Below, in pieces: positions 28,369 through 52,869 of a DNA stretch of 64,000 nucleotides (positions within the stretch are counted from its first letter, which is position 1; every line of letters starts with the position of its first letter). The notes beneath the pieces are model-generated. The model saw only the letters and a list, made by a program, of their open reading frames with translations, was not told where the DNA came from and made no database searches. The DNA is taken from assembly GCA_047495785.1 (NCBI GenBank), contig JBLDXI010000002.1, forward strand, positions 930,001 through 994,000, given 5' to 3'. This DNA is from Lepidodermella squamata. Taxonomy: Eukaryota; Animalia; Gastrotricha. Position numbers and translations under genes: made by a program.

Positions 28369-29091
28369 AATAGCGATAAATTTTCCCAATGTTGGATTTC
28401 GTCACAGCTTTTCATAATATTGGGAGTGAACTGCTCTTTACGACCTATTTAGCTGTCAAACCTGAAGGGTTATCCGCATTAGGTAGTCCAATCAAAATTT
28501 AACGAGTGACTCAATAACTCGATTGTATTTCCCCCATATCTGAGATAAAAAGCTTTAAAATCGTCGACATAGGCTTGGATTTTACGATGGTGAGCAGAAA
28601 CAAATTACATTCGGTTTCGAAAAGCACGCAAAGCCGGTTTTCAGCTCATTTTCGATAGACAAGCTGCCATTCTGTTTTTCGTTCGTTCGTTCGTTCGTTC
28701 AATACACATTTTCATTCAATTCTTCCCAAGCATTCCTAATTGCTGCTGATGAAACAATTCGATTTTATGTGCAGACAATTCGATTCCTGTGGTTCAGTTC
28801 CAGCGTAGCGAGAAAAAAAACTGAAAATCATTTTTATTGCACGTTTATTAAAGCATGGAAATGTGCAGGGGGAGATATTTACTCAGGCCTGCTGTTGTAG
28901 TTGTCTTCCTCACGCTTAGCCTCGAGGTAGTTTTATTCATAGTTTTATTGGCCGCTTTGCTGGTCACCTTGCTGGCCACCTCGTTGGCCACCTTGTGTGA
29001 GACCGTGCTGGCCGCCCTGTTGGCCACCTTGGCCGCTTACCAGGTCACCTAGCTGGCCGCCCTGTTGGCCACCTTGGCCGCTTTGCTGGTC
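28369..29091 (+). repeat. Left copy of 723-bp direct repeat flanking the Maverick (3' part of peptide gene D)
   Basis: Matches 52870-53593 apart from one A in a homopolymer; abuts the left TIR exactly. Confidence 0.93.
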
Positions 29092-29219
29092 AGGAGGATG
29101 ATTAGGGCGGAACGAAAAAATAGCCTCAAAAAATTAGCTTATTTATTTGATTTTCCATGTTAAATATTAGTGCAAAACTGGATGCTAAAAATGGAGGATA
29201 TTTTTTTTTTTTCACCCTG
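29092..29219 (+). repeat. Left terminal inverted repeat
   Basis: AGGAGGATGATTAGGGCGGAACG...; first ~90 bp match the right TIR with one mismatch, then the copies diverge. Confidence 0.93.
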
Positions 29220-29347: not shown

Positions 29348-30022
29348 TTAATTGATATGACGGCCAAATCTAAGAACGCCAGGACCGCGGCCAACACCTC
29401 CAGTCAACAGAGCAAATCCTCCGATGAGTCCAACAGCAGTTAGTAATGCAGAGAGCCCAGCGCAAGTTGCCAAGAGTACCGCATCCCAACCAATACCACT
29501 ACCACCATTGCTCGATGCCTCATCCTCAACTGCATCTGGAGCTACAACAGGCGACAACAGACCAGTCGTACAATTCGAGAGTGTATCAATTGTCATAAGC
29601 GTTGTAGTAGTGGTTGGCATGGTCGAAGACGGTGGGTTACAGTTGTTTATCGTTGTCGCTCTCTGCGTCGTGGATATCATCTTTCCAGAATCCATACATG
29701 AGACATCCGGCGAAGTCACCCCAACAGGGGGCGTTTGTGTTGACACCGATTTAACTGTGGCAGTTGATATAACAGATATGAGTATTGGCGTCCGTGTGGA
29801 TGTTGGCATCTTTGTAGACGTTTTTGACGTGGGCGGCGGCGTCCAAATTGTGGTCGTAGTACACGGACGCGATCGGACAGTTTTATTACCGGCAAACGAT
29901 GTAACACCCGACGGAGTGGTGTTCAAGGCGTAGGCTGCATTCACTCGGCCCACGGATGGCGGTAGTAATGCCAGTGATATATTTGCCAGTATAAAATTAG
30001 CGACATTAAGAAGCTGTGACAT
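29348..30022 (-). CDS. Mucin-like type I membrane glycoprotein (Maverick accessory)
   Basis: Hydrophobic N-terminus, T/S/P-rich ectodomain with NxT sequons, C-terminal hydrophobic helix, short tail. Confidence 0.7.
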   Translation of the reverse strand: MSQLLNVANFILANISLALLPPSVGRVNAAYALNTTPSGVTSFAGNKTVRSRPCTTTTIWTPPPTSKTSTKMPTSTRTPILISVISTATVKSVSTQTPPVGVTSPDVSCMDSGKMISTTQRATTINNCNPPSSTMPTTTTTLMTIDTLSNCTTGLLSPVVAPDAVEDEASSNGGSGIGWDAVLLATCAGLSALLTAVGLIGGFALLTGGVGRGPGVLRFGRHIN

Positions 30023-30045: not shown

Positions 30046-30744
30046 TTATTCAGTTTTATTATTACAGTTAGAAGATAGGAAATTATGATCATCCTGCGTT
30101 AGATCAAGACTAAAATGGTGATTATAGATCTTGTTGCAGAACTGAATGAATTCATGAACAAGAGCTATTCCGTCGTCAAGATTTTTCACTCCTATTATAG
30201 TAAATCGTCCCGAGAAAGGGAAGAAATTAACTTTTCGATTGTTAAATGAGAGTCGCATAGCTGAGAAAATTTCAGGTTGATATACAGTTTTAACTGTGTT
30301 CGTCTCCTTGATAAAGTATAGGTATAAAAGATTCAAGTCGATGAATTCAAACGGTAGTCGTCCAGTCAATACGATGTTATGCACTTGGAAGTCTGAATAA
30401 GACGGAGGTTTCGGAGACGATATCCATTTACATATCTTTGATGCAATTTTAGATGACGCCAGCTCGAGACTATTTATATCGCGGAAGTTACGCCCTCCAA
30501 GTAGTAAAACCTTTCCGGATGCGAAGACTCTCGCGGTCACTCGAGGCTCACATTTCAAATTTACACATCTTGGTACCTTCATACTATTGAAATATGTGTT
30601 TACACCTTGACTGGCAAGCAATCGTAAATTTACACATCGATCAAGGTTAAATGTCGCGACAATATTGCCTATTCTGATATCTACAATCCAATCAGCCGTG
30701 ACAGGCTTTGGACTTCTCATTGGTGTTGTCAAAGTACTGTCCAT
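30046..30744 (-). CDS. TATA-binding-protein (TBP/TRF2)-like factor
   Basis: Two TBP repeats: NIVATFNL..VNLRLLA..EPRVTARVFASGKVLLLG and FQVHNIV..IDL..YQPEIFSA..SGRFTIIG; probable ATG at 30744. Confidence 0.85.
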   Translation of the reverse strand: MDSTLTTPMRSPKPVTADWIVDIRIGNIVATFNLDRCVNLRLLASQGVNTYFNSMKVPRCVNLKCEPRVTARVFASGKVLLLGGRNFRDINSLELASSKIASKICKWISSPKPPSYSDFQVHNIVLTGRLPFEFIDLNLLYLYFIKETNTVKTVYQPEIFSAMRLSFNNRKVNFFPFSGRFTIIGVKNLDDGIALVHEFIQFCNKIYNHHFSLDLTQDDHNFLSSNCNNKTE

Positions 30745-31752
30745 GCTGCTGAGCAAAGTGACATCTACCACGCCGCAGAATGTCACTGGCTAGGTTAGCC
30801 GATGGTCGATTGATAGGATCCTTACACAACATTAGATAAATAAGACTAAGAATGGAATCAAAATTTAAAATCGAGCGATGATCAAGATTCAAACTCGAGT
30901 AAAACGCATTTTTACACTGAGTCTTTCGAATAATCTCTTTATATAATGTGGTAAGTTGACGAGATGAAAACAAGGGTTCTAACGTAATTAGTTCTAATAT
31001 AGTTACAGCTAAGGACCAAATGTCGATTTTTTCATCATATTTCTTTTTGGGAAAAACTATCTCGAAAGCTCGGTATGAGAATGTTGTAACAGTATCTGTC
31101 ATAGGTGGAATGAAGGACTCTTCATCACAAATTGCACGAGGAAGTGATGACAATGAGCAGAGCGCATACGGATTCAATCGAGCCATTCCGAAGTCTGCTA
31201 GGTACACGTCCAAGCCATTCTGATGAACCATGATGTTCTGTAAATTGCTAAATATATATAGGTTAATGTAATTGACTAGGAAACCTGAGGACAAATGTCC
31301 CGATGAATAATGTTGAGACTGTGAATCTTGTCCAGTGCATTAAGCATTTGATCGAGCCAACGTGCGGTGAGAAGAGACATCATAGGGACGCTCAGGTTGT
31401 TAATCACATGCCTTAAATCCATTTTGTAGAGTTCCATTACGATATTGAGATCTTGCCCATTCGTGATGGCTGAGTTCGATGGAGGATAAATGACCTCAAT
31501 CAACCTGAAATATTTAAATTGATGACAAATAAAATAACCTCAGCATTTGAATTAAAACCTTGCAATGTTGGCCATTCCAGCTAGCTGGGTAAGGCAAAAA
31601 ATCTCCCGAGTCGCAGATTCATGTTGATATTGATTTGAGAGGCGTATCGTTTTGATCGCGTAGAGCTCTCCAGATTCGACATCGCGGTACTTGGCCACGG
31701 ATCCATAGGTACCGCTTCCGATGTGACTGATGTAAGTGTAATGTCCTGACAT
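30692..31752 (-). CDS. CMGC (CDK/MAPK-like) Ser/Thr kinase, 319 aa (exons 31752-31559, 31504-31285, 31237-30692)
   Basis: GSGTYG, AIK, SATREI, HRDICPQN, DFGMAR, YRAFE, DIWS; two GT-AG introns (54 and 47 bp) restore the frame. Confidence 0.9.
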
Positions 31753-31790: not shown

Positions 31791-34128
31791 ATGGGTAAAA
31801 CCAAGAATCCCCAGGATCAACTATCCAGTCAATTAGGGGAGATCTACTACTCTCCAAATCACGTAGGCAGTCTTGGTAGCGTCGCGTCGTTATACAAAGC
31901 TTACAAGGAAAAATATCCTAAAAATGGAATTACTGTTAAAAAAGTTCGCGAGTGGTTGGGAAATCAACGTACTTGGAGCGTATACAAGCAGGTTAGTACT
32001 CGAAATAGGAAATCTCGGAAAGTAGCATGCTTCAGTACTCACAGTTTGTATGCTGCAGATCTGTTATCAACGGTAAACGTTCAAGATGAAAACGATGGAG
32101 TAACTTGGCTTCTTACATGTAAAGACACGTTTTCGAGATACGCCTTTGTAGAGCCAATGCAAAATAAGTCAGGCCGAGAAACTGTTCGAGCTATCAAGAA
32201 ATTATCACCCCTCTGAAATTATTTATGCCTTGGTCCTAAAATCAGTCGGCCACTGTGTTGACCATTGTTCGGATTAAAATCAGACCGGCGGATTTTATGA
32301 GCGAGCCGCCGGTCTGATTTGTCTTAACTCGAACGAAGGTCAACTCAGTAGCCGTCAGATGGCAGAGCAAAAATTAAGACAACCCAAAAAGAGACAGGAC
32401 AAACAATAGGTTAAGGAGAAAATGGCGAAAATACAACAAATTCCTGGCTTAGGTAAAGGTAAAAGGCCACGTTGAAAATAGCAAAAAATTAACTAAAATG
32501 GCTTGGCTAATGGAATAGAGCTCAATATTGAATCAAGACAAAAATTCGTTCTAATTTGAATTATACAATTCACCCTGTTTTCTAAGCAGAGATTAAGAAT
32601 AATTCCAGAATTCAAGAGATTTGAACAGGTTTGAGGAAAAGTTACCGTTCTCATTCATTTTAGATTAATTTGTTCAACGCTGTTATCAGTGATCAAAATT
32701 TTTGGATTTGCCAATTGCCAATTTTCGATCAGCTGGTGCTTTAATTTGAAATCAATAGCAATGCCATGAATATCGAAATGCAGGCCGGAAAGAGTAATAG
32801 GGTTAGATCCCTCTATAAATTTTAGGAGCAGTTTGACGGCAACTGAAATTTATCGCCTGAAAGCTGTATTTAAACAAAAAACGGAATTGTATTTACAGTA
32901 GATAATATAGAGCTAGGTCTGACAATCTACATCACCTGAAACCTCAATAATTACTGAAAATACCTGAACTTGAGCCGTTCTTGCCACCTTCGGTTAAAAA
33001 GAATCTATTCAAACCTCCGAAACTCAGCTTAAAACATGCTAGTAGCTTTCGAATCAAAATTCGGAAAAATGAAGCCCGACTAATGTTTACGAAGTCCACG
33101 TGTCTTAGTCCAAAGGAAAAAAAATCAGTCTCTTTTCCGTCGTGACGCGGATTACTACTAGGACATGTCGCAGATGGGTGATAATAAGTATATTGCCTTA
33201 TTTGCAATTTTAGTCAGCTGGCGGATTTTGGTCTCCGGCCTGGCGGCCTCCGACCAAAAATCCGCCCGCTGACTAAAATTACAACTAAGGCAATATATTA
33301 TAAATATTTAGTAGGGTCAAGCAGTTGCCATACGCCCTGGTATGTGATAGAGGGTCAGAATTTGTCAATAAAGAAGTCAAAACGTATTTGAAATCTGTTG
33401 GTGTTCACATGTATGCGACCAACTCGGAGAAGAAAGTCCCTCAAATCGAATCGTTCAACAAGTTACTGAGGATTCGTCTAGCCAAGCTGGCGTTGGCACG
33501 GAACGATTACCGATTCATCGATGACTTGGAAGACATAGTTCAAACATATAACAACTCAGTTCATTCCGCGACGAAACTTACCCCATCTCAACTATATCAT
33601 GATCCTGCAAACGAGAAGAAGAATAAGTTATATGAAAATTCCGAACTTGGACTTGAAGTCTATGAAGGATCCCGAATGCAATATCAAGCGTTCGTAAACG
33701 TGTTTGGGAGCGATCAGCCGTGGCGGACACAAAAGTCGGTGAAATTCGCTTTAGGTGATGTGGTGAGAATATCTGCTGAACGTGGTGTGTTCGACAGAAC
33801 GCGACATATCACCTTTACAGATGAGTATTTCAAAATAGCTAAAGTAATAAAGCCAGACAAGTTCGGACCGTACACATATAAATTATACGAGTGGGATAAG
33901 GATGTTGGCGACTACGTGAGTCCAGTTGCCGGGGTGTTTTACGATCATGAACTTCAAAAAGTCGAATTACCGGAAGAGTACTTAATAGATGAGGTCGGTA
34001 GTGAGAAGCGAAAGTTCCGTGATGGAACAACTCGAGTATTGGTGACTTGGAAAGGATTCCCGAAATCACAAGCTTCATGGGAACCCATCGAGAATATAAG
34101 AGCAGCTAATAGAGCAAGTAACAAGTAA
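31791..34128 (+). pseudogene. Retroviral-like (rve) integrase with C-terminal chromodomain, interrupted by a 1.1-kb insertion
   Basis: AADL/DTFSRYA, CDRGSEF and IESFN DDE motifs; chromodomain LVTWKGFPKSQASWEP; removing 32202-33303 gives a continuous 411-aa ORF (..AIKK|IFSRVKQLPY..). Confidence 0.9.
32202..33303. mobile_element. Non-autonomous insertion with asymmetric subterminal inverted repeats and long hairpins (Crypton- or Helentron/HINE-like)
   Basis: TTATCACCCCTCTG at the left end pairs with CAGATGGGTGATAA at 33171-33184; imperfect palindromes at ~32248-32353 and ~33189-33297; inserted in an A-run; no convincing ORF. Confidence 0.7.
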
Positions 34129-34159
34129 TCAATGAAATTAATATATAAAAGCAAATAAA

Positions 34160-34528
34160 ATGAGCATCATGCTATCGATGAATCGCAAATGGTTCGGAGG
34201 CGACGCACATATCGTAAATACAGACTCTATGCCGCAACTCGACGACGTCCAGCAACGAAACGTCGTAGGCATTGATCGATCGTCAATCGATGAATTCACA
34301 CAGCGCATTGACGACAATCATCGTAACTTAGAGCCGTCTGAGGAACAGTCAAATCAAAGTAGCAGCGGTTGGACAGTCCAATTTCGGCGTAGTCTGAGAG
34401 TCGCATCAGTTGCCTTCTTTCTGACCGCCTGGCTTGTCACTGAAATATTTCGTGCAGCCAACGAATACCTTTGGTGTCGCAATAGTAGTATCCCACCCGA
34501 GTCATCAAATTATCAAAACAGGACATAA
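34160..34528 (+). CDS. Small Maverick protein with one hydrophobic segment
   Basis: 122-aa ORF packed between integrase and mCP; hydrophobic stretch VASVAFFLTAWLV. Confidence 0.55.
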   Translation: MSIMLSMNRKWFGGDAHIVNTDSMPQLDDVQQRNVVGIDRSSIDEFTQRIDDNHRNLEPSEEQSNQSSSGWTVQFRRSLRVASVAFFLTAWLVTEIFRAANEYLWCRNSSIPPESSNYQNRT

Positions 34529-34530
34529 TA

Positions 34531-36381
34531 ATGACCGGTCATCAACAAATCAACTCATTTTACTTGTATCTACCAAGTAATTCGAGCATGTCCTACTACC
34601 CAGACAACAATCCAGCTTCATTTCAAGTTAAATTAGCGAATGAAATTGACCTCGGAGGTGTAGGTAACTGGGAAATGGGACTGATCGAGTATATAGGACC
34701 GGCTACTTGGGAAACTCTAGAAAAAACCAACTATTACGTGTTTAACTGCCATTACGTTATTGGGGAAAAATTCCCGGACGATCCGTTTACGAGTGGGGAC
34801 GCCTTCGAATGCAGTGTCGGTGGAGCTTACTATCCATCCCCTGAGGATTTAGTAGAGCATATGACAAGGTCAAATCCCAAGCCTAACGATATAATTATTG
34901 ATTACGATCGAGTAATCAACCGGGTATCGCTGAGAATCCGCCAAGGGAGTGAGTGGGGGCTGTACATACCTGAGAACTTGGCTAACGTCTTAGGGTTTCC
35001 TGGGGCGGTTCTCGCTATCAATTACTATGATGAGTCAGAAGTAGAGCAGGGCTCTAATCGGGATATATGGTTCGCTAAAGATTTCCAGGGGCTATTAGGT
35101 TATTTTGTGCATGGCTATAAGGTGAATAGACCCCTTATTCACGGTCCGCTGCATCGAATGGAAGGCAATCGATTATGGTACCGCGGCAGAGTCCACACAG
35201 TGGATGAACCGTCAGGTCTAAAACGTGCACGAAGGGACGCAGCTGGACCTGTGCCGGATGCAGAGACGTTCAATGAGGTAGACATGTCATCTCTAATTAT
35301 TAAGCTGAGTGGAAAACGAGGAAATGATCTCGATGAAACACAACCACAGAAAGCACCAATGGCATCTGCAACAACGAAAACAACAACAACAACAACGATG
35401 AATGGAGCGAAAACAACAGCAGCGGTGAAATCTACGGCAACCACGGCGGAGCCACCCAAGACGGTGACGTCTACGACAACCAGTGCGGTGCCACCCAAGA
35501 CGTCTACGGCAACCAGTGCGGTGCCACCCAAGACGTCAACGACAACCAGTGTGGCACCAACCACAGCTGCGACGGTGACGTCAACGGCAACCAGTGCGGT
35601 GCCAACCAAGACGGTGACGTCTACGACAACCACTGCGTCAACGACAACCAGTGCGGTGCCACCCAAGACGTCTACGGCAACCACTGCGTCAACGGCAACC
35701 AGTGCGGTGCCACTCAAGACGTCAACGGTAACCAATGTGGCACCAACCACAGCTGCGACGGTGACCTCAACGGCAACCAGTGCGGTGCCACCCAAGACGT
35801 CAACGGTAACCAGTGCGACACCAACCACAGCCGCGACGGTGACGTCAACGGCAACCAGTGCGACACCAACCACAACGACCACCGTCGCCATCGCACCATC
35901 GCAAACGCCGTCTGATACTCGTAACACAGAAATCTCTGGCGAGGAACCACCAGCGCAACCGGGTCAAAAACGACAACGACTATCGGATATCCTTGACGTG
36001 GAAGACGATGAGGTGAAAATTGGCAATTGGCAAATCGAGACGTCATATCTAGTGTACCATCTATCGAAAACTGAGAAAAAAGTGGCGCCGTATGCAGTGC
36101 AACTAGATTACGGCCTACCATTTATCTGGATGTATTGTGACGTTCTAGAGAGTATAGTTGTGGGAGATGTGAAATCACCCTTATTGCGTATTATCCCTAC
36201 AGAGAAAAATGTCGAACGGAAAGCAGTATTTTCTGTATCTTTTAAAAAACCAATATATGTTAAAATTCAACGTCGTATATTAGATACTATTGCTCTGAGT
36301 CTATATAAAGACAGTGGTCGGCGTATAGCCTTCCAGTCTGGCAAATCAATCGCTGTTGTTCACATCCGTCCTATTGTGTAA
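34531..36381 (+). CDS. Minor capsid protein (penton) with Thr/Ala-rich insertion
   Basis: Polinton mCP-type N-terminus FYLYLPSNSS..YPDN..F..L..W..GL.E and C-terminus YCD.....VGD..PLLR.I...Y..I....G..I.F. Confidence 0.85.
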   Translation: MTGHQQINSFYLYLPSNSSMSYYPDNNPASFQVKLANEIDLGGVGNWEMGLIEYIGPATWETLEKTNYYVFNCHYVIGEKFPDDPFTSGDAFECSVGGAYYPSPEDLVEHMTRSNPKPNDIIIDYDRVINRVSLRIRQGSEWGLYIPENLANVLGFPGAVLAINYYDESEVEQGSNRDIWFAKDFQGLLGYFVHGYKVNRPLIHGPLHRMEGNRLWYRGRVHTVDEPSGLKRARRDAAGPVPDAETFNEVDMSSLIIKLSGKRGNDLDETQPQKAPMASATTKTTTTTTMNGAKTTAAVKSTATTAEPPKTVTSTTTSAVPPKTSTATSAVPPKTSTTTSVAPTTAATVTSTATSAVPTKTVTSTTTTASTTTSAVPPKTSTATTASTATSAVPLKTSTVTNVAPTTAATVTSTATSAVPPKTSTVTSATPTTAATVTSTATSATPTTTTTVAIAPSQTPSDTRNTEISGEEPPAQPGQKRQRLSDILDVEDDEVKIGNWQIETSYLVYHLSKTEKKVAPYAVQLDYGLPFIWMYCDVLESIVVGDVKSPLLRIIPTEKNVERKAVFSVSFKKPIYVKIQRRILDTIALSLYKDSGRRIAFQSGKSIAVVHIRPIV

Positions 36382-36413: not shown

Positions 36414-36839
36414 ATGCACAGTGCAGATGTTTACGAGAATTTTTTGTTACATCAGGCCGGTTACGGTAACATTGAAGCCTTTCGAGGGCAGCAGATAGTA
36501 TTTCCATCGTATCAGTCTGGAGGTGGTTTTGGCAGTGCAGCCGTTGGTTTTTTGAGAAAGCATTTTATACCATTACTAGCTCCTATTTTCAAAAATATAA
36601 CGGCCACAACGGCCAATATTGCCCAGGATCTGATTGAGAAGAAGGGTGGTGACACGGGCGCAATATTCAAAGCAAGGGCTCTCGAAGGCGCAAAATCATT
36701 AGGAAAGGATGTACTTAGCTATGCCTCGAACCAAATCGGGTCTGGGGTGGCTAGGCGCAAGCGAAAGAGAAAAGTCGCCGCAACAAATCAACGCACTCGT
36801 GGTGGGAAACGCGGTAGATCAAGACGCGTTTTCATGTAA
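36414..36839 (+). CDS. Putative virion core protein with QxGxG motifs and Arg-rich tail
   Basis: QAGYG, QSGGG, QIGSG; C-terminal RRKRKRK..RGGKRGRSRR; lies between mCP and MCP. Confidence 0.7.
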   Translation: MHSADVYENFLLHQAGYGNIEAFRGQQIVFPSYQSGGGFGSAAVGFLRKHFIPLLAPIFKNITATTANIAQDLIEKKGGDTGAIFKARALEGAKSLGKDVLSYASNQIGSGVARRKRKRKVAATNQRTRGGKRGRSRRVFM

Positions 36840-36895
36840 AAAGTATATATAAAACACACTAGTGTGCAATCCTCATCGAATAGTATGCGCTAGCA

Positions 36896-38281
36896 ATGTT
36901 CATTCACCCGTCGTCTGAGAGCGCTCTTAGAGCTGAACTCGATGTGTTCAGTATAAGCCCGACACAGGTTGAAATAGAAGGAAACTACATCACAGAGTAT
37001 GCTCCAACATCGTCAATTGTAAATCAAACCCGCCTAGACTTCGATGTTTGTACTTCAAACGACTGGACAGACCTGAGTCGCAGTTACATTGAAATTCGGT
37101 GTAGAATCATCAACGGAACTGACGCAACAAAGAAAGTCGACGGTGACGTCGCTGCTATCAACCTGCTGTTGCATTCGATGTTTTCACAGGTCGACATGTT
37201 TCTCGGTAATACTCAAATCACGGAAAGTTCCCCGACCTACCCTTATCGCGCTCTAATATCGACGATACTTAGCTATGACATTGCAGCTAAGGAGACATAT
37301 CTACCTCTCCAGGGATATTACGCTGACGAGGCGGGGAAGCTCAATGATATGGTGAACTCGGCGACTGGGGTAGATCCTGTCACAACCATGTCCAACGGAT
37401 TCAAAGTTAGGAAGGAGGTATCAGCGAAGGGAACCACCATGCTACTTATCGGAAAGCCGGTAACTTATATATTTTATCATTTGAAATGTACATTTAATAA
37501 AAATGAATAAATATAGCATCTCGAAATGTTCAACCAGCCTAAATTTTTGGTACCTAACATGAGTTTCCGGCTGTCATTCATTCGATCGCCCGACTCATTC
37601 GTTTTGATGTACCCTGATTCGAGCAAGTCTTATAAATTGGAGATTTTAGACGCAAAGTTAATGATCAGACGTGTTCGGGTCACTCCGCAATACACGCTCG
37701 GCTTACAAAAAGCACTCCTAAAAACCAATTGTCGATATCCGTTGAATCGAAATTGGATCAAAACGGTCAACTTACAGAAAGGATCCTTCACGTACAACTT
37801 GTCAAATATCATAATTGGACGCATCCCGAGGCGAATGATTATGTGTCTTGTGAAAGATTCGGAAATGAAGGGATCTGCTCAAACTAATCCGTTCAATTTC
37901 ATTCACGCCAAATTACAGCGAATATCGGTATTCATAGATTCCGAGCAGGTAGTCAACAGCCCATTGGAACTTGACTATTCAACCGGTCAAGTTGCGCGAG
38001 GCCTTCACAGCTTGAACCAGTGTCTATTTCCCTATTCAAAGAAGAATAATGGCATCACCCTAAAAGAGTATTCAAAAGAGGGAGGCTATAATTTCTGGGG
38101 TTGGGATCTGAGCAGTGATAGTAGTAGAAGTTTGTTCAGCCTGGTTCGTACCGGGGTTTTACGTATCGATTTGGTGTTCGCAGAAGCACTAGCTGAAAAT
38201 TTGAATTTACTCCTCTACTTTGAATCCGATCAAATTCTGGAAATTACGTGGAATCGAGCTGTCGTGGTAGATTTTAGCTAA
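36896..38281 (+). CDS. Major capsid protein (double jelly-roll), 442 aa; intron 37460-37516
   Basis: ELDVF..PTQ, N.LHSMFSQVD, YPYRA, NPFNF motifs; the 57-bp GT-AG intron joins GKP|HLEMFNQPK. Confidence 0.93.
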
Positions 38282-38955
38282 TGTCAGCATTCGGACCGTA
38301 TAATGATAGGACAAGTAGTCTTAATTCTGTCCAACTTGAATGTATGCTAGCCTACGCAGATTGCTGTCTTCAGCATGTTCCTGTGAGGCGGGTGTTACCG
38401 TGGGATCACCTAATACACGGTTTCGCGTCGCATACTGTACGACCGATGGCATTCATTGTAAATACAGATGCTAGCGGCATGCCTGGGTCGCACTGGCTAG
38501 CAATTTACATCGGGTCTAACCCAGAAAATCCACCGCTGTTTTTCGATAGCTACGGGCAAAGTGCTGGCTATTATAATGCCGCGATTGAAAACTATTTAGA
38601 AACTATATCTGCAGCGCCTATTACGGCATACGAGTATAATACTAAATGCTGGCAAGCTCAGAAATCACGGGCATGCGGCTATTACTGTTACTACTTCTTA
38701 TATTTGGCGGCAAGAGGTGCTAGCCTAGAAATGATTTGCCGATTTTTAGCAACTGCCGCAGACCATCGTCAAACGACAGTAGATGAATTTGTGTACAATC
38801 AGGTGAATAAAATCATATATAAAATTCAAGCGGTGGTTGTAAATAGCAAGAATCGACAACGCAATTCGTGTTCTGCCCAGGAATGCAAGTCGCTGGCGGA
38901 GCACGGGCTGAGGTTGAGTTCGACCTTAGCCTGCAAGCGCCATTCACTAGTCTAA
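38281..38955 (+). CDS. Adenain-like cysteine maturation protease
   Basis: IVNTD...GSHW, FFDSYG, Q...CG.YC (His/Asp/Cys); ATG overlaps the MCP stop (TAATG). Confidence 0.92.
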   Translation: MSAFGPYNDRTSSLNSVQLECMLAYADCCLQHVPVRRVLPWDHLIHGFASHTVRPMAFIVNTDASGMPGSHWLAIYIGSNPENPPLFFDSYGQSAGYYNAAIENYLETISAAPITAYEYNTKCWQAQKSRACGYYCYYFLYLAARGASLEMICRFLATAADHRQTTVDEFVYNQVNKIIYKIQAVVVNSKNRQRNSCSAQECKSLAEHGLRLSSTLACKRHSLV

Positions 38956-39590
38956 TAATCGGTCCTAGCTCATCTGGTAAAACGCATCTAATCAGGCAGC
39001 TGTTAAATGACACAGATTCGATAACGCCGAGGCCCAATCGAATTATATGGTATCACGGAGTGACGCAACAGGTGCATGATGTCATTCGTCAAGAAGTGCT
39101 AGCTAGTCGCAAAATCGATATCGAATTTCGCACTAATGGGCTTGAAGACCTACATTTCGATGAATTTTCGACAACAGCTACGACAGCACCAGCCTCGCAC
39201 AGCTTACTTATAATTGATGACCTTTATGATGTAGCTAAAAATTCTGATAAGGTGGCGCAATTATTTTTCAAGTATTCTCATCATATGAATTTATCTGTTT
39301 TCCTAACTCAGAATAATATATATCCTAGAGGCAGTAGAAGTAAAGATATGGCTGTAAATACGCACTATTTGTTTTTGTTTCGTAATCGCGGTGATATGCG
39401 TCAATTCAGATACTTGGCAGGGCAAATTGAAAATAATTGGCGATTTCTAGTGGATGCATATGAGACTGAGACTGCAGAGAGTCATCACTACTTATTGATT
39501 GATCTAACACCCGGCTGCCCAGATTCATTGAGATACCGAACAGGGGTCGGATCTAAACCTGGAGTGGTGTACTTGCCTACTGAATCGTAA
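38883..39590 (+). CDS. A32/FtsK-like genome packaging ATPase
   Basis: Walker A GPSSSGKT, Walker B LIIDDL, SHH.N.S....QN motif. Confidence 0.92.
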   Translation: MQVAGGARAEVEFDLSLQAPFTSLIIGPSSSGKTHLIRQLLNDTDSITPRPNRIIWYHGVTQQVHDVIRQEVLASRKIDIEFRTNGLEDLHFDEFSTTATTAPASHSLLIIDDLYDVAKNSDKVAQLFFKYSHHMNLSVFLTQNNIYPRGSRSKDMAVNTHYLFLFRNRGDMRQFRYLAGQIENNWRFLVDAYETETAESHHYLLIDLTPGCPDSLRYRTGVGSKPGVVYLPTES

Positions 39591-39701
39591 AAATTTGATT
39601 ATCTTGAACGATGTGAAATAAATATGTATAAAGAAATAAACTTGCCGTTGTTTTTTCGCGTATTTCTATCTCTCTCTTGCACAGGTAACGTGTACACGCA
39701 C

Positions 39702-40136
39702 ATGCATCGCCAGGAAAGCAGTAAAAAGCAACGCACGTTAGGGTTCATCGAGCAGATAATTCAAGCTGGTAGCGATGAAAAACGGCGTCAGTTGTTATCT
39801 ATAGCTACAGATACTGTAATAAAAGTGATCACAGAAATTTGTATGAACATATTAGCTAAAAATCTCTCCGTGCCCGAGAGCGATGCAGTAAAATTTCGTA
39901 AAAATCGCGCGGCAATGAAACGCTTATGTCATTCCAATCGGTCAGTGTCCGCCAACCGCAGGTTACTGTGCAATCATGCGCCTCAGCGCGGCGGAGCAGC
40001 CATCGTGGTACCAATGCTCACAGCCGCTGCAAGTAAGTTTACTATGCGCGCGCAATTGAAATCTATATATAAAACGTATCACGCAGGTTTACTACCTAAA
40101 ATCATCGAATCAATCATTGCAGCTAGGTCGAAATAA
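39702..40136 (+). CDS. Polinton-type virion protein with QRGG site and amphipathic tail (probable in-frame intron 40033-40086)
   Basis: I.EIC.NIL...RRLL...QRGG pattern; 54-bp GTAAGT...GCAG intron candidate. Confidence 0.65.
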   Translation: MHRQESSKKQRTLGFIEQIIQAGSDEKRRQLLSIATDTVIKVITEICMNILAKNLSVPESDAVKFRKNRAAMKRLCHSNRSVSANRRLLCNHAPQRGGAAIVVPMLTAAASKFTMRAQLKSIYKTYHAGLLPKIIESIIAARSK

Positions 40137-40139
40137 GTG

Positions 40140-41246
40140 ATGGTACAGCCGCAGCAGCAAAAGAGAAAGTATGCTCGCAAATATGCACTCGTTCCCGTAG
40201 TCACCAGCACCACAGCAGTTGCGACGGCGCCGGCACAACAGCCGACAACAGCTGAGAATATCAGCGCAAAGCGACTGGCGCGTGAAGCTGTCGAACAGCC
40301 GCAAAAATCTCAGCTCAAAAATAAAGTTGAATCCTTGATCGACATTCTGTTTAGCGATGGCGGTGATGGTGGCGGCGATGGTGATGATAACGCGCGAGTT
40401 AAATTGCTCAAATTCGAATCCGCGTTCCGAGATTTTCATCGTATTGTCAATGAAATAAAAACACATGAAGATGCGCAGCAGAAACGTGAAGATGACGACG
40501 ACGGGCGCAGCAGAGCAGAAGCTGCCGCGACAATCGATGCACCGCAGCGCCGACAGCACCGACAACGACAGCGTCAACTGTCGACGTTGAGACAGGTACT
40601 TGGTCGGCGGCTATCTACTGTGATAAAGCAAGAACCACCGCCAGCGATTGATATATCGCCAATTGTCGACGCACAACAACAACAAAACAGACCGCCGCAG
40701 CAGCTCTCTACCTCGACACCGATCACCACAGCCGGGCCGGCGGGCGGGCGGGCGGCGGCGGGCGGGCCTCCGGCGGCGCCAAGTGTCGTAGCTGGCGATC
40801 TGATCAGAGAATCACCCATGTTCGATGAGGAGCGAATATTACGTGATTTTGCGAAGGCCCCACAAAAGCAACGTAAGGCTATTGCTGATGTTTTGTCGCA
40901 CTATCGAACAACTCGCCAGGATAATATCATTGTTACGGACAATAGCAGTAAGATTCGGCTAAAATCAGCTCCTATCAGTGACGCTATTGGCGTGAATGAA
41001 TTCATAGATCAAATAACATCTAAAAGTAGTAATAGTACTAGTAATGAGAAACGTGATAAAATACGAGCACTAGTTGCACACTCTGGGTTTACTTCACAGC
41101 AAATCGTGAACCCTGTTTTCCAGCGATCTATAATAAGTCTGCGCGGTGCCAGCGATGATGCAAACAGTAATAACATGCAAGTAGGAGGGAGTTATAGAAT
41201 TGGCAATGTTCTGTGGAAGCGATGGCGTCCAAGCAAAAGTAATTAG
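40140..41246 (+). CDS. Maverick hypothetical protein (low complexity, Trp-containing C-terminus)
   Basis: ~368-aa ORF closing the structural gene block; ends QVGG...WKRW. Confidence 0.65.
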   Translation: MVQPQQQKRKYARKYALVPVVTSTTAVATAPAQQPTTAENISAKRLAREAVEQPQKSQLKNKVESLIDILFSDGGDGGGDGDDNARVKLLKFESAFRDFHRIVNEIKTHEDAQQKREDDDDGRSRAEAAATIDAPQRRQHRQRQRQLSTLRQVLGRRLSTVIKQEPPPAIDISPIVDAQQQQNRPPQQLSTSTPITTAGPAGGRAAAGGPPAAPSVVAGDLIRESPMFDEERILRDFAKAPQKQRKAIADVLSHYRTTRQDNIIVTDNSSKIRLKSAPISDAIGVNEFIDQITSKSSNSTSNEKRDKIRALVAHSGFTSQQIVNPVFQRSIISLRGASDDANSNNMQVGGSYRIGNVLWKRWRPSKSN

Positions 41247-42506
41247 GAGACAAGGAAAACGATCGGCATTTGATACGGTTGATTATAACGATCGCACATG
41301 CTAGCATTTATGAAATTTGTTTTATCATTTCGCACTGAACCGTGTGCTATAAAATAAAAACTCGATATAAACCATGAATGTGTGTTTGTATGTTTTTCAA
41401 CTAGCCTTCATGAACATGGCCGAATACGTGAACAGCCAAGTTTAATCGATTGGCAACATGATTCGTCAGCGCCAAGCACCCGTAATGTTTGCCGCTCTCG
41501 GTGGCGTCAAGTACGCCTGCGCACGGGCCGTGGGTTAACAGAATGTCTGTGTTATCAGGTATTTGCTTCCATTTCTCATCGAGACTAGCTCCGCGAGTTA
41601 GCGTGAACGCACGATGAGCGGTGCAGCTGATTGGCGGATGTGGTGTCCTAAAGAAATAAAAAAAAAAAGATAGGAAGATAGATAGAAAGAAAGATTATAC
41701 CATGGCGATCCGTAGATTAACAGCCCGTTGACCCAAATAGAGTCATCCTGCAGGTAAGTGATATTATCCCCATAGTAGCGGCATGTCTCGTCCCAGATGA
41801 ATTTTGGATATTGCTGTAGCGACCGGTCGTGATTTCCAGCGATGAAAATGATGGATTGGAAATGAGGCGATAGTTTTCCCAATATTTTCAGAAACGCTAT
41901 GACCTCTTTACGACTACCGTAGCTAGTTGCATCGCCCGTATGTACCAGTACGTCTGCGTGCACTCGGTTTTGATCTGACAAGACGCTTTCGAAAAAATCC
42001 TCGCCGTGAGTATCAGAGATAGCGAGGAACTTTGTCCTCTTGTGGCTTGGCGAATAAACCATTCGCCTATCATCATCATTACCATCATTTGTCTGCTTGC
42101 GTCCGTCATTACGAAAGGCCCTGACGAGCATCAATGTACCGTCCATAACACGGCTCACACCGCCGAGAGCATCTTCGTAATCACCATTCTCGTCAACCGC
42201 TGATTGTAATGAGGCGACAAATTGGTTAAATGACTGCGCGGTTAAAAAAATATATAATATATATGACATTCATAGTATAAATATCACACATACCTTGTTC
42301 CCATGTATCAAAGTAAGGTAATTGATCGGTGATGTCAAGTCCTTCGGGCTGGTCCAGCAAACGCCCTTCTCCGGTATATCAGTGTCATCATACGAGTCGT
42401 CTGAATCAATGCCATCCATCGGCCATGCCTCATCGTCGTCGTCGTCACTACAGCGGAATACAGGTGCGTTTAATAATTCCATCTTTGCGAGAGAGCGCTC
42501 ATCCAT
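41243..42506 (-). CDS. MPPED-like calcineurin-fold metallophosphoesterase (exons 42506-42294, 42233-41701, 41647-~41401, possible last exon 41346-41243)
   Basis: ISDTH, HTGD, GNHD, YGSPW, THGP and FGHVHE motifs; GT-AG introns of 60 and 53 bp; last junction unresolved. Confidence 0.85.
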
Positions 42507-42661: not shown

Positions 42662-43225
42662 TTATTCGTCATCGATGATAATTACAGCCGACGGTGAATT
42701 TGGCGCTCTAACATCACGGCGCAACTTTTTATTTCGGCGCTGCTTAGTCATCGACGCAGCCGTGCAACCACGCTGTTTAGCATGCGGCGCCATCGAACAC
42801 TGTTCTGCCATTGTGCTGGTACCGACTGTAGGAGCAGCCGAAGTAGATGTGAATATACAATCTCGTTCATGTATAGCCAAAGTATTACGCGAGAAGGCGC
42901 CTTTACATCCGTTTCCTACGAATTTACAGCTAAATCGAAGGCGTTCATTAACCAGTTGCTTGACGATTCGTGGCGCAGGTTCGATGTCGAATAGCGTATG
43001 ATCACTACGACAAGTTGGACATTGGCGAATTGCGAAAATTGAAATCCTTGTACCATTAGGCTCCACGTCTTTTCTCAGAGCCATCATCATGCATTTCTCA
43101 CAGAAACAATGTCCGCACGCGTTGATGATGACTGGGTTTTCGAATAAACCCAGACATATAGCGCACTTAAGTTCTTCAATCGCATCAAGAGTGGATACAC
43201 ATCGGGATACCAAATCCTGCTCCAT
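42662..43225 (-). CDS. RING finger (C3HC4) + TRAF-type zinc finger, putative E3 ubiquitin ligase
   Basis: CAIC...CGHCFCEKC...CPTCR followed by C....GC.......H...C; basic C-terminal NLS-like segment. Confidence 0.85.
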   Translation of the reverse strand: MEQDLVSRCVSTLDAIEELKCAICLGLFENPVIINACGHCFCEKCMMMALRKDVEPNGTRISIFAIRQCPTCRSDHTLFDIEPAPRIVKQLVNERLRFSCKFVGNGCKGAFSRNTLAIHERDCIFTSTSAAPTVGTSTMAEQCSMAPHAKQRGCTAASMTKQRRNKKLRRDVRAPNSPSAVIIIDDE

Positions 43226-43319: not shown

Positions 43320-46300
43320 TTATTTGGGTTTATAGCCATATGGAACAGAGTCGTACGTATTCTTGTCAAAAACACGCTTGTTGAGCTGCGGTTTCAGCCT
43401 TTTCTTTACGTTAACCAATTGAACACCAGCAGGAGCTTGAAATCGACGGAAAAATGTTTGATCCATGGATAGGTAATTAGCACCACGTGTCGCTGAATTA
43501 GCATACTCACTGTCAAAGTAAGACGCTAACAGCTCAATTAAGGAATCATGCGAGATTTCATGCTGATTGCTGAATGTTTGAGTCAGCCCTGATTGTGCGC
43601 GCGGCCATTATCATGTGTCGTAAATTATTATTAATACGCATACTTACCTTTTGCCTTGCTTATTACCTTGCCTGATGACAGTGTTAAACAGTAAGTCTTA
43701 CACGCGATTGATGTGAATTCAAGAATGCATTCACCTAGTCCTATTTCACTTTTCCACTCGCCTAAATGATAACTCTCAGGAATCGGATCGATCTCACCTT
43801 CGTCAAGGTAATAGATCAGGGAATCAGCTAGTTTGAGAGCGAGCGAGATACATATATAATATATATTTATAGAAAATATAATAACGTACTATCCGTATAA
43901 AGTAGTCTGTTACCGAGTTTGACCATGTTCTCGTGCAGAAGAATTCTACTGTACGCGGTTATCATACTGGCGATAACTGGATTGGTCGTGGCCTTAGAAA
44001 CCTCGCAGTCCTCAGCATCTGAGAATGAAACACGAGCCCTCTCGCACCCACCTGTTGGTCCGACGATATCGACTGATTGAACTGATTTATTTGTGCTTGA
44101 CATAAGTTCAATCAACTGGCTTGGATCTTCTAAATATACAACCTCCTGGTTACCCTCGCGCAGGGCAAAGCGACCAAACGATGCATTACTCAAAAGCTTA
44201 GCCACAGATCGAAGAGGTGGATTTGGAGAGTTAAGCTGCTGTTTATCTAGAGTGAAATTATATCTCTCCTGGCATTCGCGTATAAATGTATCTATATCAA
44301 TATTTTCCGGTAATGCTGAGTTTTCCATCTTGGACTTTTGTAAATCGAGCACAAGCTTGTCAAAGTTCAAATTCGACCTTTGTTTCCAAGACCATGCCTC
44401 GTAAATAGTGATCAGTTTATAGCCGCAATTTTCAATGGCATATGTCACCTCAGGAGTTGTCCAGGCTGATGTAAGAGCCCTCTGCTCCTCATCATGTTGA
44501 CAATCGAGTGTTGTTACACACTCAGATGCGCAAGTGAAACAATTAGTGAAAACAAAACGAGAGGACGCACCACATCCGATCTTAATTCCTAGAGCTGGGA
44601 TCAAATTCGAGGGGTCTGGTAATATTTTACAATATAAAACGCCGAATAATTTGAGAGACTCATCTTGACTATAAAATCGAGCTTTTAAAGCTTCATCGTT
44701 CAGTCTGAGTCGAAGGACATCATGGTCGATTTCGCCTTGAATGTAAACTTGCGAGAACATGGAATAGGCATACGATGAGTTCAGATCTTTAATAAGAATT
44801 TTTCGAGTTTTTCCATCAACTTTCATGTGGCATTTCAAGACTTCAACTCTACCTCCACTTAAACTAGATCTGGCTTTAAGCGGGGGAATTATTTTAAATT
44901 TAGAGTTTAATTCACTAGAAATAGATTGGTTTTCAGAGAGAAATCGTTTCCATTGGCAGGTGGTTTGAACTCTCAGGCTGTACCCGCTCTCTCTAATTGC
45001 CTGATGCCTCATTTGACTCTTATAGTTCAACTTACCATACGTAGTTCGCATTAATGTTGAGTAGGAGTTGGAATCAAAACAATCGGAACAGCCGTGAATA
45101 TGGCACGAGTCGAACTCTAGTACTTCAAGAATCTTACCTGAATCGATATGTCTTACAGCTCCGTCTACTTTAATCCAATTTCCATTAGCTAGTCTAAGAG
45201 TCACCTCTCGCCCGTTTTCACTACTATCTATCCTATGATAAGCCGGTGTTGCTTGAGATGATAGAAAATGTATCCATTGTCGACATTGAACACTAGTTGA
45301 GTCAAGTAAGCAATAGCCAGAGATGGGAATGTACTGAATGCTATCGGCGGACATGTATTTAAGCTTATACAGCGCATGAGCTATCGAGCTTATGGTACAA
45401 TGCGCGGCCAATGCATTGATACCAGCTGGAGCTTTCGGACAGATTGAAAGGTCGCGAAATAGCTTGTTAAATCGAGTCATTGCTAATCGCATGACTGCTA
45501 CGTCGATTGCTGTGTATTCCGTGATTTCATCGTGAAAATTAAATGGCTGGCCTAATCTTCGCTTTTTATCGATCATATTGCGCAAATCTACGACATCTTG
45601 CTCATTTTTGATTTTCGATGTGTCATAGGCTGAAATATTAGGCCACGGGTCTATAGTGTTATTTCCAGGCTTGAAACACTCAACTGTGTGAATGAGATGG
45701 GGAAATATACCTTTTCGAATTTTCATTTCAGGTAAAAATGCCGGCCCGAGCTTACTCACACTTGTATGCACAAATGAATAGCCGTCTATAAAACGCGGAC
45801 CTAGCCGACCTATGCGTAATTCTAATATGGACCCATTGCGAAACAAGGTGTTTAATTTTAATCCAGAATCTTGAGCCACCCTAGCAACTAAGAGCTGGTC
45901 AAATTTAGATCCGAACCAGCTTACGTATGTTATCCCACTCAATTGCTCCTGCATGATGTGCTTTACAAATTGGGTCATTGCATCTACTCGATTAATATAA
46001 TCGTAATAGAAAAATAACTGGTGGCACTCGCATACACCTGGATATACTGGGCTTCGGTCACTTGGATAATCGACTGCTTCGAAATTTTCACATTTGTTGC
46101 AGCTGAATTGGCAACAAACGACGGACGGAACAAAGTAGTTATTTTCATCTCGGAAAGTCTCCGTGTCAAACCACCCGAATTTATAGGTCGATCGCTCTTT
46201 CGGTGGGAAGGCCTGCCAATAACATACTCGATGGTCGCGAAAATTTCCATCGATAATTATACCGCATTGTGGGCATTTTTTACCACCTCGGCATCGATGA

Positions 46301-47790
46301 GCGGCTAGGTGCTTTCTAGTCAGCGTTTTACTACATTTTTCACAGCGAGCGTAGTTGGCACATGTCTTATTTTTAAGATGGTTGCTGTAGCATTGTGCTG
46401 AGAAATACAACCTATTACAACTAGCGCAATGAATCTTCGATTCATCGTCTAAATAACTACTACATCTGACCCACGATCGACGCTGGACTAGAGTCGCAGG
46501 TGACAGTATATTACTGGGGTCAGTGTGACTCGTCCGAGTAGGCTCTAGGCACGCCCGACATCGGAAGCGACACGCATGGCTTAGTTTTGTATTTACTACA
46601 GTATAACACTCAGTACATAATACACGACCTCTCATAAGTTGTGATGGAATATTTTTCAAGCCGCCGTAGTGGCCGAACGTCCTACCCATAAGCTTCGGGC
46701 TAATGTAAACTAGGTAAAACTTTTTCGTATAGCTGGTTTTCTTAACATCTGGGTAGCTATAGCATATTGCTCTCTGTTCTAAATCATATACTAAAACTTG
46801 CCATTTGTCGAATCTATTATAATATTGAAGAATTCGTTCAAGCGTGTCGATACCATAGCTCTCAGCTGTGGGATCTATACCAGCTTTGTTCATAAGATCC
46901 AGCGCAACGCTTCTTAACAATGCCGCATTTTTGATGAGGCGAAAATATATCCGCCCTTTTTCTTCGAGGTATGGATGTAATATGTACATGAGCATATCTT
47001 TCGCGCGCTTTTTACGATATAAAAGAAATTCAGCGTATGCGCGTGCTAATATTATTGCGTAAATAAGACAATAATTTGAATCATCCTCTGGTGTTTTGAT
47101 GTAACCCGATAGGCTCTCGACCCAGTTCGTTAATTTTTGCTCTAGTAGCGGACGACGGCGTGTTACAGAACGTCCGCGACCCATCATTTGCTTAGCTGTC
47201 GTCTCCGCGTCAGATGAGTTCTGAATTTTCAGTCTTTTATCTGCTACGGTGGAGATGCCGGCGCCATCGATAATAGCTGTAGTAGAATTACGCTTTTTCA
47301 CATTGGAGCTATCAGCACTGCTGTTGTTATTTTCTGCTAGTATAACACGCGCAAATACTGAAAAATGCTGTTGACCTGCTGCGACGTGATCATTCGATTG
47401 AACAACTCGCTCTATCCTATTCAAAATCACGTCTCCAGACAGTTTTGCTATCTGGATATACTCCATATCGACTGGATATCGTAAATCAGGATTATCTAGT
47501 TGTAATTTGCATATATCACGCTCGTTGAACTTTGAACGTAAATATGTGACGATTTCTTCAAAATTAGCGTGAATTTTTTCGTAGAATAGCTTCAGATCTA
47601 TTGCTGGCTTTTTGTCCTGCTTAACCCCGGCGGTGCTACTACGGCCATATCCGTGTTGTTGGGCGCTGACTAGAATATTAGCTACGTCCTCGCAGTTTTC
47701 ATACTCAGGTAGTTCCAGGGTGAATGAAAAAGATATTAGACCGAATTTCTGCGAATGTATCACACATGGCGTGACATTTTTTATGGCCAT
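43320..47790 (-). CDS. Protein-primed family B DNA polymerase, 1449 aa (exons 47790-43890, 43827-43648, 43588-43320)
   Basis: ExoI FDTET, ExoII FD, ExoIII YTAID, GGRVE, DLNSSY, K..SN..FG, spliced YTDTDS and KAKG, terminal PYGY; OTU-like C/H region and internal Vsr-like VDG..EF..C..HGC domain. Confidence 0.95.
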
Positions 47791-52742: not shown

Positions 52743-52869
52743 CAGGGTGACTTAAAAATATCCTCGATTTTTTTAGCTTCCAGTTTTGCACTAATATTTA
52801 ACATGGAAAATCAAATAAATAGGCTAATTTTTTGAGGCTATTTTTTCGTTCCGCCCTAATCATCCTCCT
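52743..52869 (-). repeat. Right terminal inverted repeat
   Basis: Reverse complement of 29092-29219; ends ...CCGCCCTAATCATCCTCCT. Confidence 0.93.

What the first reader, a model, noticed from the sequence alone, without database searches (positions are those of the whole stretch)
30046..30744. Virus-encoded TBP-like protein with mixed TBP/TRF2 features
Both saddle repeats are recognisable. VNLRLLASQGVNTYF resembles TRF2 (LNLRKIALEGANVIY), while NIVATFNL, EPRVTA, FASGK and YQPEIF resemble TBP. The first DNA-intercalating Phe appears replaced (NSMKV vs NPKRF), so DNA specificity may differ from host TBP. There is no long N-terminal extension, and the start overlaps the 3' end of the kinase gene.
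Basis: partly seen in the sequence, partly recalled or inferred. Interest (0 to 1): 0.82.

Follow-up and report, generated by a model that had tools for sequence, protein, structure and literature searches.

The report
Maverick element's own TATA-binding protein
A virus-like Maverick/Polinton element inserted in an animal genome carries a heavily altered gene for the TATA-binding protein, and five of its eight capsid-block genes sit behind an ordinary TATA box, so the protein likely helps the host's RNA polymerase switch on those genes, although the host's own TATA-binding protein could read the same boxes.

Summary
Confirmed: 30046-30744(-) encodes a two-lobed TBP (Pfam 68.7 bits; AlphaFold pLDDT 87; TM about 0.8 to solved TBPs), 26-38% identical to its best database hits. 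It lies 950 bp inside a 23.8-kb Maverick/Polinton (TIRs 29092/52869; pPolB, integrase, capsid, protease, ATPase) in an animal, probably nematode, genome. No RNA polymerase or TFIIB was detected in the element. Phe1 is Val, the other three Phe are kept, one of two TFIIB glutamates is lost, and the saddle is more polar. 'Mixed TBP/TRF2' is weak: 6 TBP, 4 TRF2 and 15 other states at 25 diagnostic columns, and trees reject neither origin. TATATAAA precedes 5 of 8 virion-block genes and 0 of 11 others, but it is a canonical box that host TBP prefers. Best reading (0.5): a late-gene promoter factor working with host Pol II. Neighbours include a spliced CDK-like kinase and a likely PC4 homolog. The copy is single and its integrase is interrupted. 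This scan reported Maverick TBPs before in other genomes; in print I found only a figure-legend label.

The parts
30046..30744 (-). Divergent two-lobed TBP, 232 aa (V57/F74/F160/F177 at the four Phe sites; YQPE TFIIB loop)
29092..29205 (+). Left terminal inverted repeat, begins AGGAGG
   Evidence: 100 nt at 98%; 116 nt at 95.7%
52754..52869 (-). Right terminal inverted repeat
28369..29091 (.). Left copy of a 723-bp host duplication flanking the element
   Evidence: 99.9%; depth 86-90 against 49
52870..53593 (.). Right copy of the flanking duplication
29348..30022 (-). Ser/Thr-rich ORF with hydrophobic ends (probable membrane glycoprotein; read from the sequence)
   Evidence: no Pfam hit
30692..31752 (-). 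CMGC/CDK-like kinase, three predicted exons (introns 31558-31505 and 31284-31238); 3' end overlaps the TBP start by 53 nt
30938..30945 (-). TATATAAA 201 nt upstream of the TBP ATG, inside kinase exon 3; three ATGs lie between
31791..34128 (+). rve integrase with C-terminal chromodomain, interrupted by a multi-copy insertion of about 1.1 kb
   Evidence: depth 380-580 over the insert against 49
34142..34149 (+). TATATAAA box before orf122 and the minor capsid gene
34160..34528 (+). orf122, unknown
34531..36381 (+). Putative minor capsid protein with Thr/Ala repeat insert (assignment from position and recalled motifs; no Pfam hit)
36302..36309 (+). TATATAAA box 112 nt before orf141, inside the minor capsid coding sequence (weakest site)
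36414..36839 (+). orf141, basic C-terminus, unknown
36846..36853 (+). TATATAAA box 50 nt before the major capsid gene
36896..38281 (+). Double-jelly-roll major capsid gene with a predicted 57-nt intron (37460-37516)
   Evidence: (DJR-like clusters, cosine 0.98)
38281..38955 (+). Adenovirus-type cysteine protease
   Evidence: PF00770, 20.7 bits against cut-off 21.3
38816..38823 (+). TATATAAA box 67 nt before the ATPase, inside the protease coding sequence
38883..39590 (+). A32/IVa2-type packaging ATPase
39624..40136 (+). orf170, unknown
40066..40073 (+). TATATAAA box 74 nt before orf368, inside orf170
40140..41246 (+). orf368, unknown
41598..42269 (-). Metallophosphoesterase (part of a predicted spliced gene)
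42662..43225 (-). RING-finger protein
43867..47790 (-). Protein-primed DNA polymerase B (main ORF; continues past a predicted 3' intron)
   Evidence: (PF03175, 84.6 bits)
50430..50753 (-). Likely PC4/Sub1-like ssDNA-binding protein
   Evidence: all weak, all point to PC4

Best explanation
A Maverick/Polinton carries a divergent TBP gene whose product likely binds the TATATAAA boxes in front of the element's virion-block genes and would help host RNA polymerase II start there. Shown: the fold, its place inside the TIRs, three of four Phe and both Asn kept, and the box in front of 5 of 8 virion-block genes. Inferred: (1) the protein still bends minor-groove DNA; (2) its target is the element's own box; (3) it uses host Pol II and host general factors, since no polymerase or TFIIB was detected in the element and its genes carry predicted spliceosomal introns; (4) its gain is independence from host TBP supply or regulation rather than a new sequence word, since the helix-2 basic patch is partly lost while the box is canonical. 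This copy is probably immobile because its integrase is interrupted.
For: Fold and residues. The query keeps 9 of 9 columns conserved at 90% or more in 102 other TBPs, 15 of 28, 15 of 44 and 16 of 99 in lower bins, a gradient expected from selection on the fold. Core pI is 9.6 against 9.8 for plant TBP. TATATAAA lies in sense within 150 nt of 5 of 8 virion-block starts and 0 of 11 other starts; the best 8-mer reached 5 of 8 in 0 of 2000 random element draws and 7 of 2000 host-flank draws. ATATATAAAA occurs 4 times in 64 kb, all at these sites, expected 0.35. The three virion-block genes without a box each directly follow a gene that has one. Six AT-rich GT-AG introns keep frames open. Precedent: herpesvirus ORF24 is a polar-surfaced TBP mimic that drives late genes with host Pol II (PMC12529657, passages).
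Against: The box is the preferred site of wild-type TBP (TATATAA then G, PMC1636458, passages), so host TBP suffices and the motif does not implicate the element's protein. RING and orf146 also have TATATATA-type boxes. Three of five boxes lie in coding sequence. The gene grouping and starts were my choice after seeing the motif, and four word lengths were tried. Phe1 is Val, and ORF24 needs all four Phe. L72, R63 and P149 equivalents are R72, L63 and S161, and the first TFIIB glutamate is Q156. Most viruses with a TBP also encode a TFIIB (PMC7221094 section 11). No close relatives were found, so neither dN/dS nor gene-motif co-occurrence could be tested.
Confidence: 0.5

Rival explanations
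1. Host TBP reads the element's canonical boxes. The element's TBP is a decoy or dominant-negative that occupies host TATA promoters or soaks up host regulators (TFIIA, NC2, Mot1, TAF1) without recruiting TFIIB, dampening host transcription.
For: Canonical box. First TFIIB glutamate lost. It sits with host-modulation-type cargo (kinase, phosphoesterase, RING). TRF2/TLF can repress by sequestering TFIIA (PMC3142196, passages).
Against: The second glutamate (E158) is kept. The helix-2 basic residues that such regulators contact (recalled role) are partly lost: K91, R95, K96, R99, K103 map to E94, S98, K99, S102, K106, which suits escape from regulators better than titrating them.
Confidence: 0.2
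2. A host TBP or TRF2 copy captured as a passenger, with no function for the element and drifting.
For: Single copy, in an element with an interrupted integrase. Very long branch. No orthologue found.
Against: Open 232-codon frame and conservation gradient. A well-folded model. About 70% divergence cannot arise in a copy whose TIRs are 96-98% and flanking duplicates 99.9% identical. GC3 of 0.35 is at the low end of element genes (0.35-0.48), below three host ORFs (0.46-0.73).
Confidence: 0.12
3. The saddle has been repurposed for a non-promoter job, such as binding single-stranded or terminal DNA during protein-primed replication or packaging.
For: The saddle is more polar (R59, R72, R164, N173). 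Giardia TBP, which lost three Phe, prefers ssDNA (PMC12209930, passages). A PC4-like neighbour could serve replication (best fold hit is the phage T5 PC4 homolog).
Against: Three Phe, both Asn, both flanking Val and T70 are kept, unlike Giardia. No TATATAAA was found in the TIRs.
Confidence: 0.1
4. It is a TRF2-derived factor that drives TATA-less transcription of element genes.
For: TRF2 states at F32, N39, G47, T182, and Val at Phe1. Query plus TRF2 is not rejected (p 0.39).
Against: It lacks Trp at Phe2 and His at Phe3. BLAST bits are 58 to plant TBP and 56, 62, 40 to three TRF2-like proteins; the TRF2 HMM gives 48.0 bits against 45.3-57.6 for 8 three-sequence TBP HMMs. The TRF2 clade is 100/100 without it.
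Confidence: 0.08

Closest known systems
Cellular TBP (PF00352; PDB 1cdw, 1qn3, 1ytb, 1mp9)
   Same: Two-lobed saddle; N27, V29, T70, F74, N123, V125, F160, F177 kept; basic surface.
   Different: About 25-30% identity; Phe1 is Val; the three yeast positions that alter second-base reading (I194, V203, L205; PMC1636458) map to R164, N173, F175, and P191 to S161; YEPE is YQPE; one residue shorter after Phe4.
TRF2/TBPL1/TLF (P0123, P0032, P0040 here, recognised by recalled motifs)
   Same: A few N-lobe residues and Val at Phe1.
   Different: No Trp at Phe2, no His at Phe3; not inside the TRF2 clade in either tree.
TBP-labelled gene in a MELD virus with adintovirus-like PolB (Starrett et al. 2021, PMC8502044, Fig. 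5 legend)
   Same: A TBP homolog in a midsize pPolB element.
   Different: Only a legend label in the section on non-animal datasets; no residues, promoters or function given in the text I read. I could not see the figure. This element is in an animal genome.
Beta/gamma-herpesvirus TBP mimics (KSHV ORF24; PMC12529657)
   Same: Virus-encoded TBP with a polar saddle, proposed late-gene role with host Pol II, loss of TFIIB acids.
   Different: ORF24 is a large multidomain protein with five partner activators, keeps all four Phe and reads a non-canonical TATTWAA box. Here a stand-alone 232-aa TBP lies beside canonical TATATAAA boxes.
NCLDV TBP homologs (BFVD hits; PMC7221094)
   Same: Same fold (best E 2e-10); diverged adapter surface.
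   Different: Those viruses mostly encode a cognate TFIIB (and, recalled, their own RNA polymerase); none was detected here. Identity to them is 8-21%, lower than to cellular TBP.
Animal Mavericks/Polintons (adintoviruses; PMC8097293, bioRxiv 2023.08.22.554363)
   Same: Core gene set, TIRs, size, accessory genes flanking the core.
   Different: Predicted introns in core genes (intact vertebrate elements are reported intronless), AGGAGG termini, and a 723-bp flanking duplication instead of a 5-8 bp TSD.

Membership tests
TBP family (fold) | Two TBP repeats forming a saddle | tested here: met
Canonical TBP | Four intercalating Phe | tested here: not met
   V57, F74, F160, F177; register of F177 rests on MAFFT and on strand E172-177 mirroring E69-74
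Canonical TBP | Two base-contacting Asn | tested here: met
   N27, N123
Canonical TBP | Two TFIIB-binding Glu (C.L3.2, C.L3.4 of PMC7221094) | tested here: not met
   Q156 and E158: one of two
Canonical TBP | Binds and bends a TATA box | not testable with these tools
   needs EMSA or SELEX
TRF2/TBPL1 | Trp at the second Phe site and His at the third | tested here: not met
   F74 and F160 (Trp also stated in PMC7221094)
TRF2/TBPL1 | Groups with TRF2 in trees | tested here: inconclusive
   outside the clade, but AU p 0.39
Maverick/Polinton | pPolB and rve integrase | tested here: met
   (PF03175 above cut-off; rve below cut-off on the 5' piece; chromodomain above cut-off); integrase interrupted
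Maverick/Polinton | Protease, packaging ATPase, major capsid | tested here: met
   (protease and ATPase just below cut-offs)
Maverick/Polinton | Minor capsid protein | tested here: inconclusive
   no Pfam hit; assigned from position and recalled motifs
Maverick/Polinton | TIRs of 100-1500 bp, length 13-25 kb | tested here: met
   100-116 bp, 23,778 bp (ranges)
Maverick/Polinton (canonical insertion junction) | 5-8 bp target site duplication | tested here: not met
   no 4-9 bp match; a 723-bp duplication instead. I treat this as a property of this insertion: the element is filed on gene set and TIRs, not as a canonical intact copy.
Herpesvirus-type late TBP mimic | Non-canonical late box | tested here: not met
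   shared word is canonical TATATAAA
NCLDV-type orthogonal TBP/TFIIB pair | TFIIB homolog encoded by the element | tested here: inconclusive
   none by Pfam among the element ORFs scanned (one sub-threshold zinc-ribbon hit lies inside pPolB); orphan ORFs were not folded

The most novel reading that the evidence does not exclude
This Maverick lineage carries a minimal private Pol II initiation kit: a TBP that has shed host regulatory surfaces, a PC4-like coactivator and a CDK-like kinase acting on the polymerase tail. Together they would take over canonical TATA promoters for virion genes with no viral TFIIB or polymerase, the smallest such system in a DNA virus.
Probability: 0.18. Interest if true: 0.75.

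Novelty: new variant of a known kind. Interest (0 to 1): 0.45.

Why it matters
I found no account of how Mavericks switch on capsid genes in the passages I read, and their virions have not been observed (PMC8097293, abstract). An element-encoded TBP with a defined set of candidate promoters makes this testable with one small protein and five short DNA sites. This case also qualifies the idea, from this scan's earlier notes, that Maverick TBPs exist to read a non-standard box: here the box is canonical, so the advantage, if any, would lie in supply or regulation. The protein is also a natural TBP variant at positions known to set specificity in yeast.

Tried and rejected
No whole genome is held, so host TBP/TRF2 and other copies could not be compared. 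Word-indexed homolog search with the protein: 0 of 223 candidates scored. Related loci: none for the protein in metagenome or viral contigs; none for a 5-sequence alignment of divergent TBPs (0 of 244 and 0 of 93 stretches); none for the capsid in viral contigs; a 6-sequence alignment had no usable pattern. The ATPase found 1 relative among 252 candidates. Sequencing runs: no RNA holder listed, which is no evidence on expression. Run X1 may be the window's own source, and it gave no cover beyond about 36,200. The loose grouping with 10 other divergent TBP-like proteins (89/91, unstarred, long-branch warning) is not taken as kinship; one of them (P0013) comes from a 17.8-kb contig but its context could not be fetched. 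The PC4-like ORF folded poorly (pLDDT 53); its fold hits are weak (best E 0.24). No second TBP-like frame lies in the window. No complex was predicted, because no eukaryotic TFIIB or TFIIA was on hand. A giant-virus origin of the window was rejected on gene content and animal-type flanks. A paper search on long integration duplications (listing only) gave nothing I used.

Full report
Observation. It matches Pfam TBP at 68.7 bits with two stretches, and all 35 PDB sequences hit at E<=1 are TBPs or TBP fusions. An AlphaFold2 model from a 103-sequence alignment is confident (pLDDT 87.1, pTM 0.79). It superposes on eukaryotic and archaeal TBPs, for example 1cdw at rmsd 2.4 A, and less well on giant-virus TBPs. 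About 20 residues precede the first strand, and the start overlaps the kinase frame by 53 nt.

Where it sits. Inverted repeats at 29092-29191 and 52770-52869 (98%; 116 nt at 95.7%) bound a 23,778-bp element. Inside are a protein-primed PolB, an rve integrase with chromodomain, an adenovirus-type protease and an A32/IVa2 ATPase, a double-jelly-roll capsid and a putative minor capsid (recalled motifs only). This is the Maverick/Polinton gene set (bioRxiv 2023.08.22.554363, passages). The flanks hold ankyrin, GDSL, galaxin-repeat and LINE genes. TTTCAG is the commonest of five acceptor words counted in the first 28 kb (46 against 32, 26, 10, 9); with the short introns this suggests a nematode host, which is an inference. 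In the one run that holds the sequence, possibly the window's source, a single contig covers 29153-32229 with no differences at depth 49. The flanking 723-bp duplication has depth 86-90, and the insert inside the integrase 380-580. So the TBP region is single-copy, the duplication looks real, and the integrase is interrupted by a host repeat. Six AT-rich GT-AG stretches of 47-62 nt keep frames open in the kinase (two), capsid, polymerase, phosphoesterase and orf168, so several apparently broken genes are probably spliced. Intact vertebrate Mavericks are reported intronless (PMC8097293, passages).

Relatives. Among 1.84 billion representatives, 548 proteins scored E<=0.001; the best 150 are 26-38% identical, and the top hit is a plant gene model with TBP written twice. 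A tree of 31 rows puts the protein on a 2.25-long branch in an unstarred group with 10 other divergent TBP-like proteins. With those 10 rows and 2 archaeal rows left out it falls unresolved among canonical TBPs. No locus for any of them could be fetched.

Residues (plant numbering, which equals the query's in lobe 1; yeast is plant plus 42, from the 1rm1 match). Kept: N27, V29, T31, T70, F74, S76, K78, N123, V125, F160, F177. Changed: F57 to V, A59 to R, R63 to L, L72 to R, P149 to S161, I152 to R164, V161 to N173, L163 to F175. The last three are the positions of the yeast TBPm3 altered-specificity mutant, and P191 is proposed to fix the first T (PMC1636458, passages). The TFIIB loop is YQPE, keeping one of the two glutamates defined in PMC7221094 (section 11 read). 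The helix-2 basic patch is partly lost (its role as a regulator surface is recalled). The query keeps 9 of 9 columns conserved at 90% or more, falling to 16 of 99 in the most variable bin, the pattern of a protein under structural constraint.

TBP versus TRF2. Three TRF2-like proteins were among the hits. At 25 columns that separate canonical TBP from two of them, the query has 6 TBP, 4 TRF2 and 15 other states.

Promoters. Earlier notes of this scan prompted a search for a shared word. TATATAAA lies in sense within 150 nt of 5 of 8 virion-block starts (34142, 36302, 36846, 38816, 40066) and 0 of 11 other starts. The best 8-mer reached 5 of 8 in 0 of 2000 random element draws and 7 of 2000 host draws. 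ATATATAAAA occurs 4 times in the window, all at these sites, against 0.35 expected. Caveats: the grouping was chosen after seeing the motif; three boxes lie in coding sequence; RING and orf146 have TATATATA boxes. The word is canonical: TATATAA followed by G is the sequence most often selected by wild-type TBP. It marks real-looking Pol II promoters but does not show who reads them. A sixth sense-strand TATATAAA lies 201 nt before the TBP start with three ATGs between.

Neighbours. The kinase is CMGC-type: exon 3 hits Plasmodium PK6 (organism recalled), a MAPK, CDK8 and CDK12/13, which does not single out a CTD kinase. ORF 50430-50753(-) is likely PC4-like: Pfam E 0.0046 below cut-off, 4 of 4 PDB hits are PC4 family at E 0.12-0.69, and the top three fold hits are PC4 family but weak. 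PC4 folds also serve phage replication, so this does not prove a transcription module. No TFIIB or polymerase subunit was detected by Pfam.

Mechanism. Most likely (0.5) the protein binds the virion-block boxes and works with host Pol II as a late-gene factor, in the manner of herpesvirus ORF24 (PMC12529657, passages) but at canonical boxes. Rivals are a decoy (0.2), a drifting passenger (0.12), a replication or ssDNA role (0.1; compare Giardia TBP, PMC12209930, passages) and a TRF2-derived factor (0.08; TRF2 background from PMC3142196, passages). Only the fold, location, residues and motif are shown; binding and function are inferred.

Prior knowledge. Viral TBPs are established (PMC7221094, passages). 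For pPolB elements, Starrett et al. label a TBP in a figure legend (PMC8502044 passages and section 10; preprint passages; the one supplement held as text had no hit; figures and other supplements were not visible and may bear on this). Four other Polinton papers had no occurrence of TBP or TATA (passages). Searches listed no paper that, by title or abstract start, describes a TBP in an animal Maverick; the library lacks most subscription journals. This scan's own notes report Maverick TBPs in seven findings from other genomes (unchecked, not independent support), several with a non-standard box. None resembled this protein by shared words.

Verdict. A real, divergent TBP carried by an animal Maverick: a new variant of a known kind, already seen several times in this scan, function untested. 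Interest 0.45.

Noticed in passing
window 28369-29091 and 52870-53593: The element is flanked by a 723/724-bp direct duplication (99.9%) instead of a 5-8 bp TSD, at twice the element's depth. It could come from an aberrant one-ended integration or from recombination between two insertions 723 bp apart; the TIRs also diverge after about 116 bp.
   Followed up: partly
window 31238-31558, 37460-37516, 41648-41700, 48223-48278 and the 3' end of pPolB: Predicted short spliceosomal introns in core and cargo genes of a Maverick, including capsid and polymerase.
   Followed up: partly
window 50430-50753 (-): Likely PC4/Sub1-like protein in the element's right arm.
   Followed up: partly
window 30745-30752 (-) and 30023-30065 (-): Acceptor-like CAG-CAG directly before the TBP ATG, in phase with the kinase exon-1 donor, and an AT-rich GT..TTTTAG stretch ending exactly at the ATG of the next ORF. 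Alternative splicing or trans-splicing may express these genes.
   Followed up: no
window 31237-31295 (-): The kinase catalytic loop reads HRDICPQ, with Cys at the usual Lys position (recalled consensus); activity or specificity may be unusual.
   Followed up: no
window 32210-33300: Multi-copy non-coding insertion with terminal hairpins (32241-32360, 33184-33301) inside the integrase gene. Run X1 also holds a contig joining 31993 to 33816 at depth 192, perhaps an internally deleted relative.
   Followed up: partly
window 53300-59700: Host tandem gene-like array with 12- and 30-bp internal repeats and a 1545-bp duplication, into which the element inserted; no family assigned.
   Followed up: no
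window 59734-63312 (-): Apparently intact non-LTR retrotransposon (endonuclease-RT ORF of 948 aa plus an upstream zinc-finger ORF).
   Followed up: no
window 27700-27800: Degenerate telomere-like GGGTTA repeats within a very high-copy host repeat (depth in the thousands).
   Followed up: no
P0013, P0181, P0182, P0188, P0251: A separate family of divergent, short TBP-like proteins (GVN..Y, DPTIF motifs) from metagenomes, one on a 17.8-kb contig; candidates for other element-borne TBPs.
   Followed up: partly
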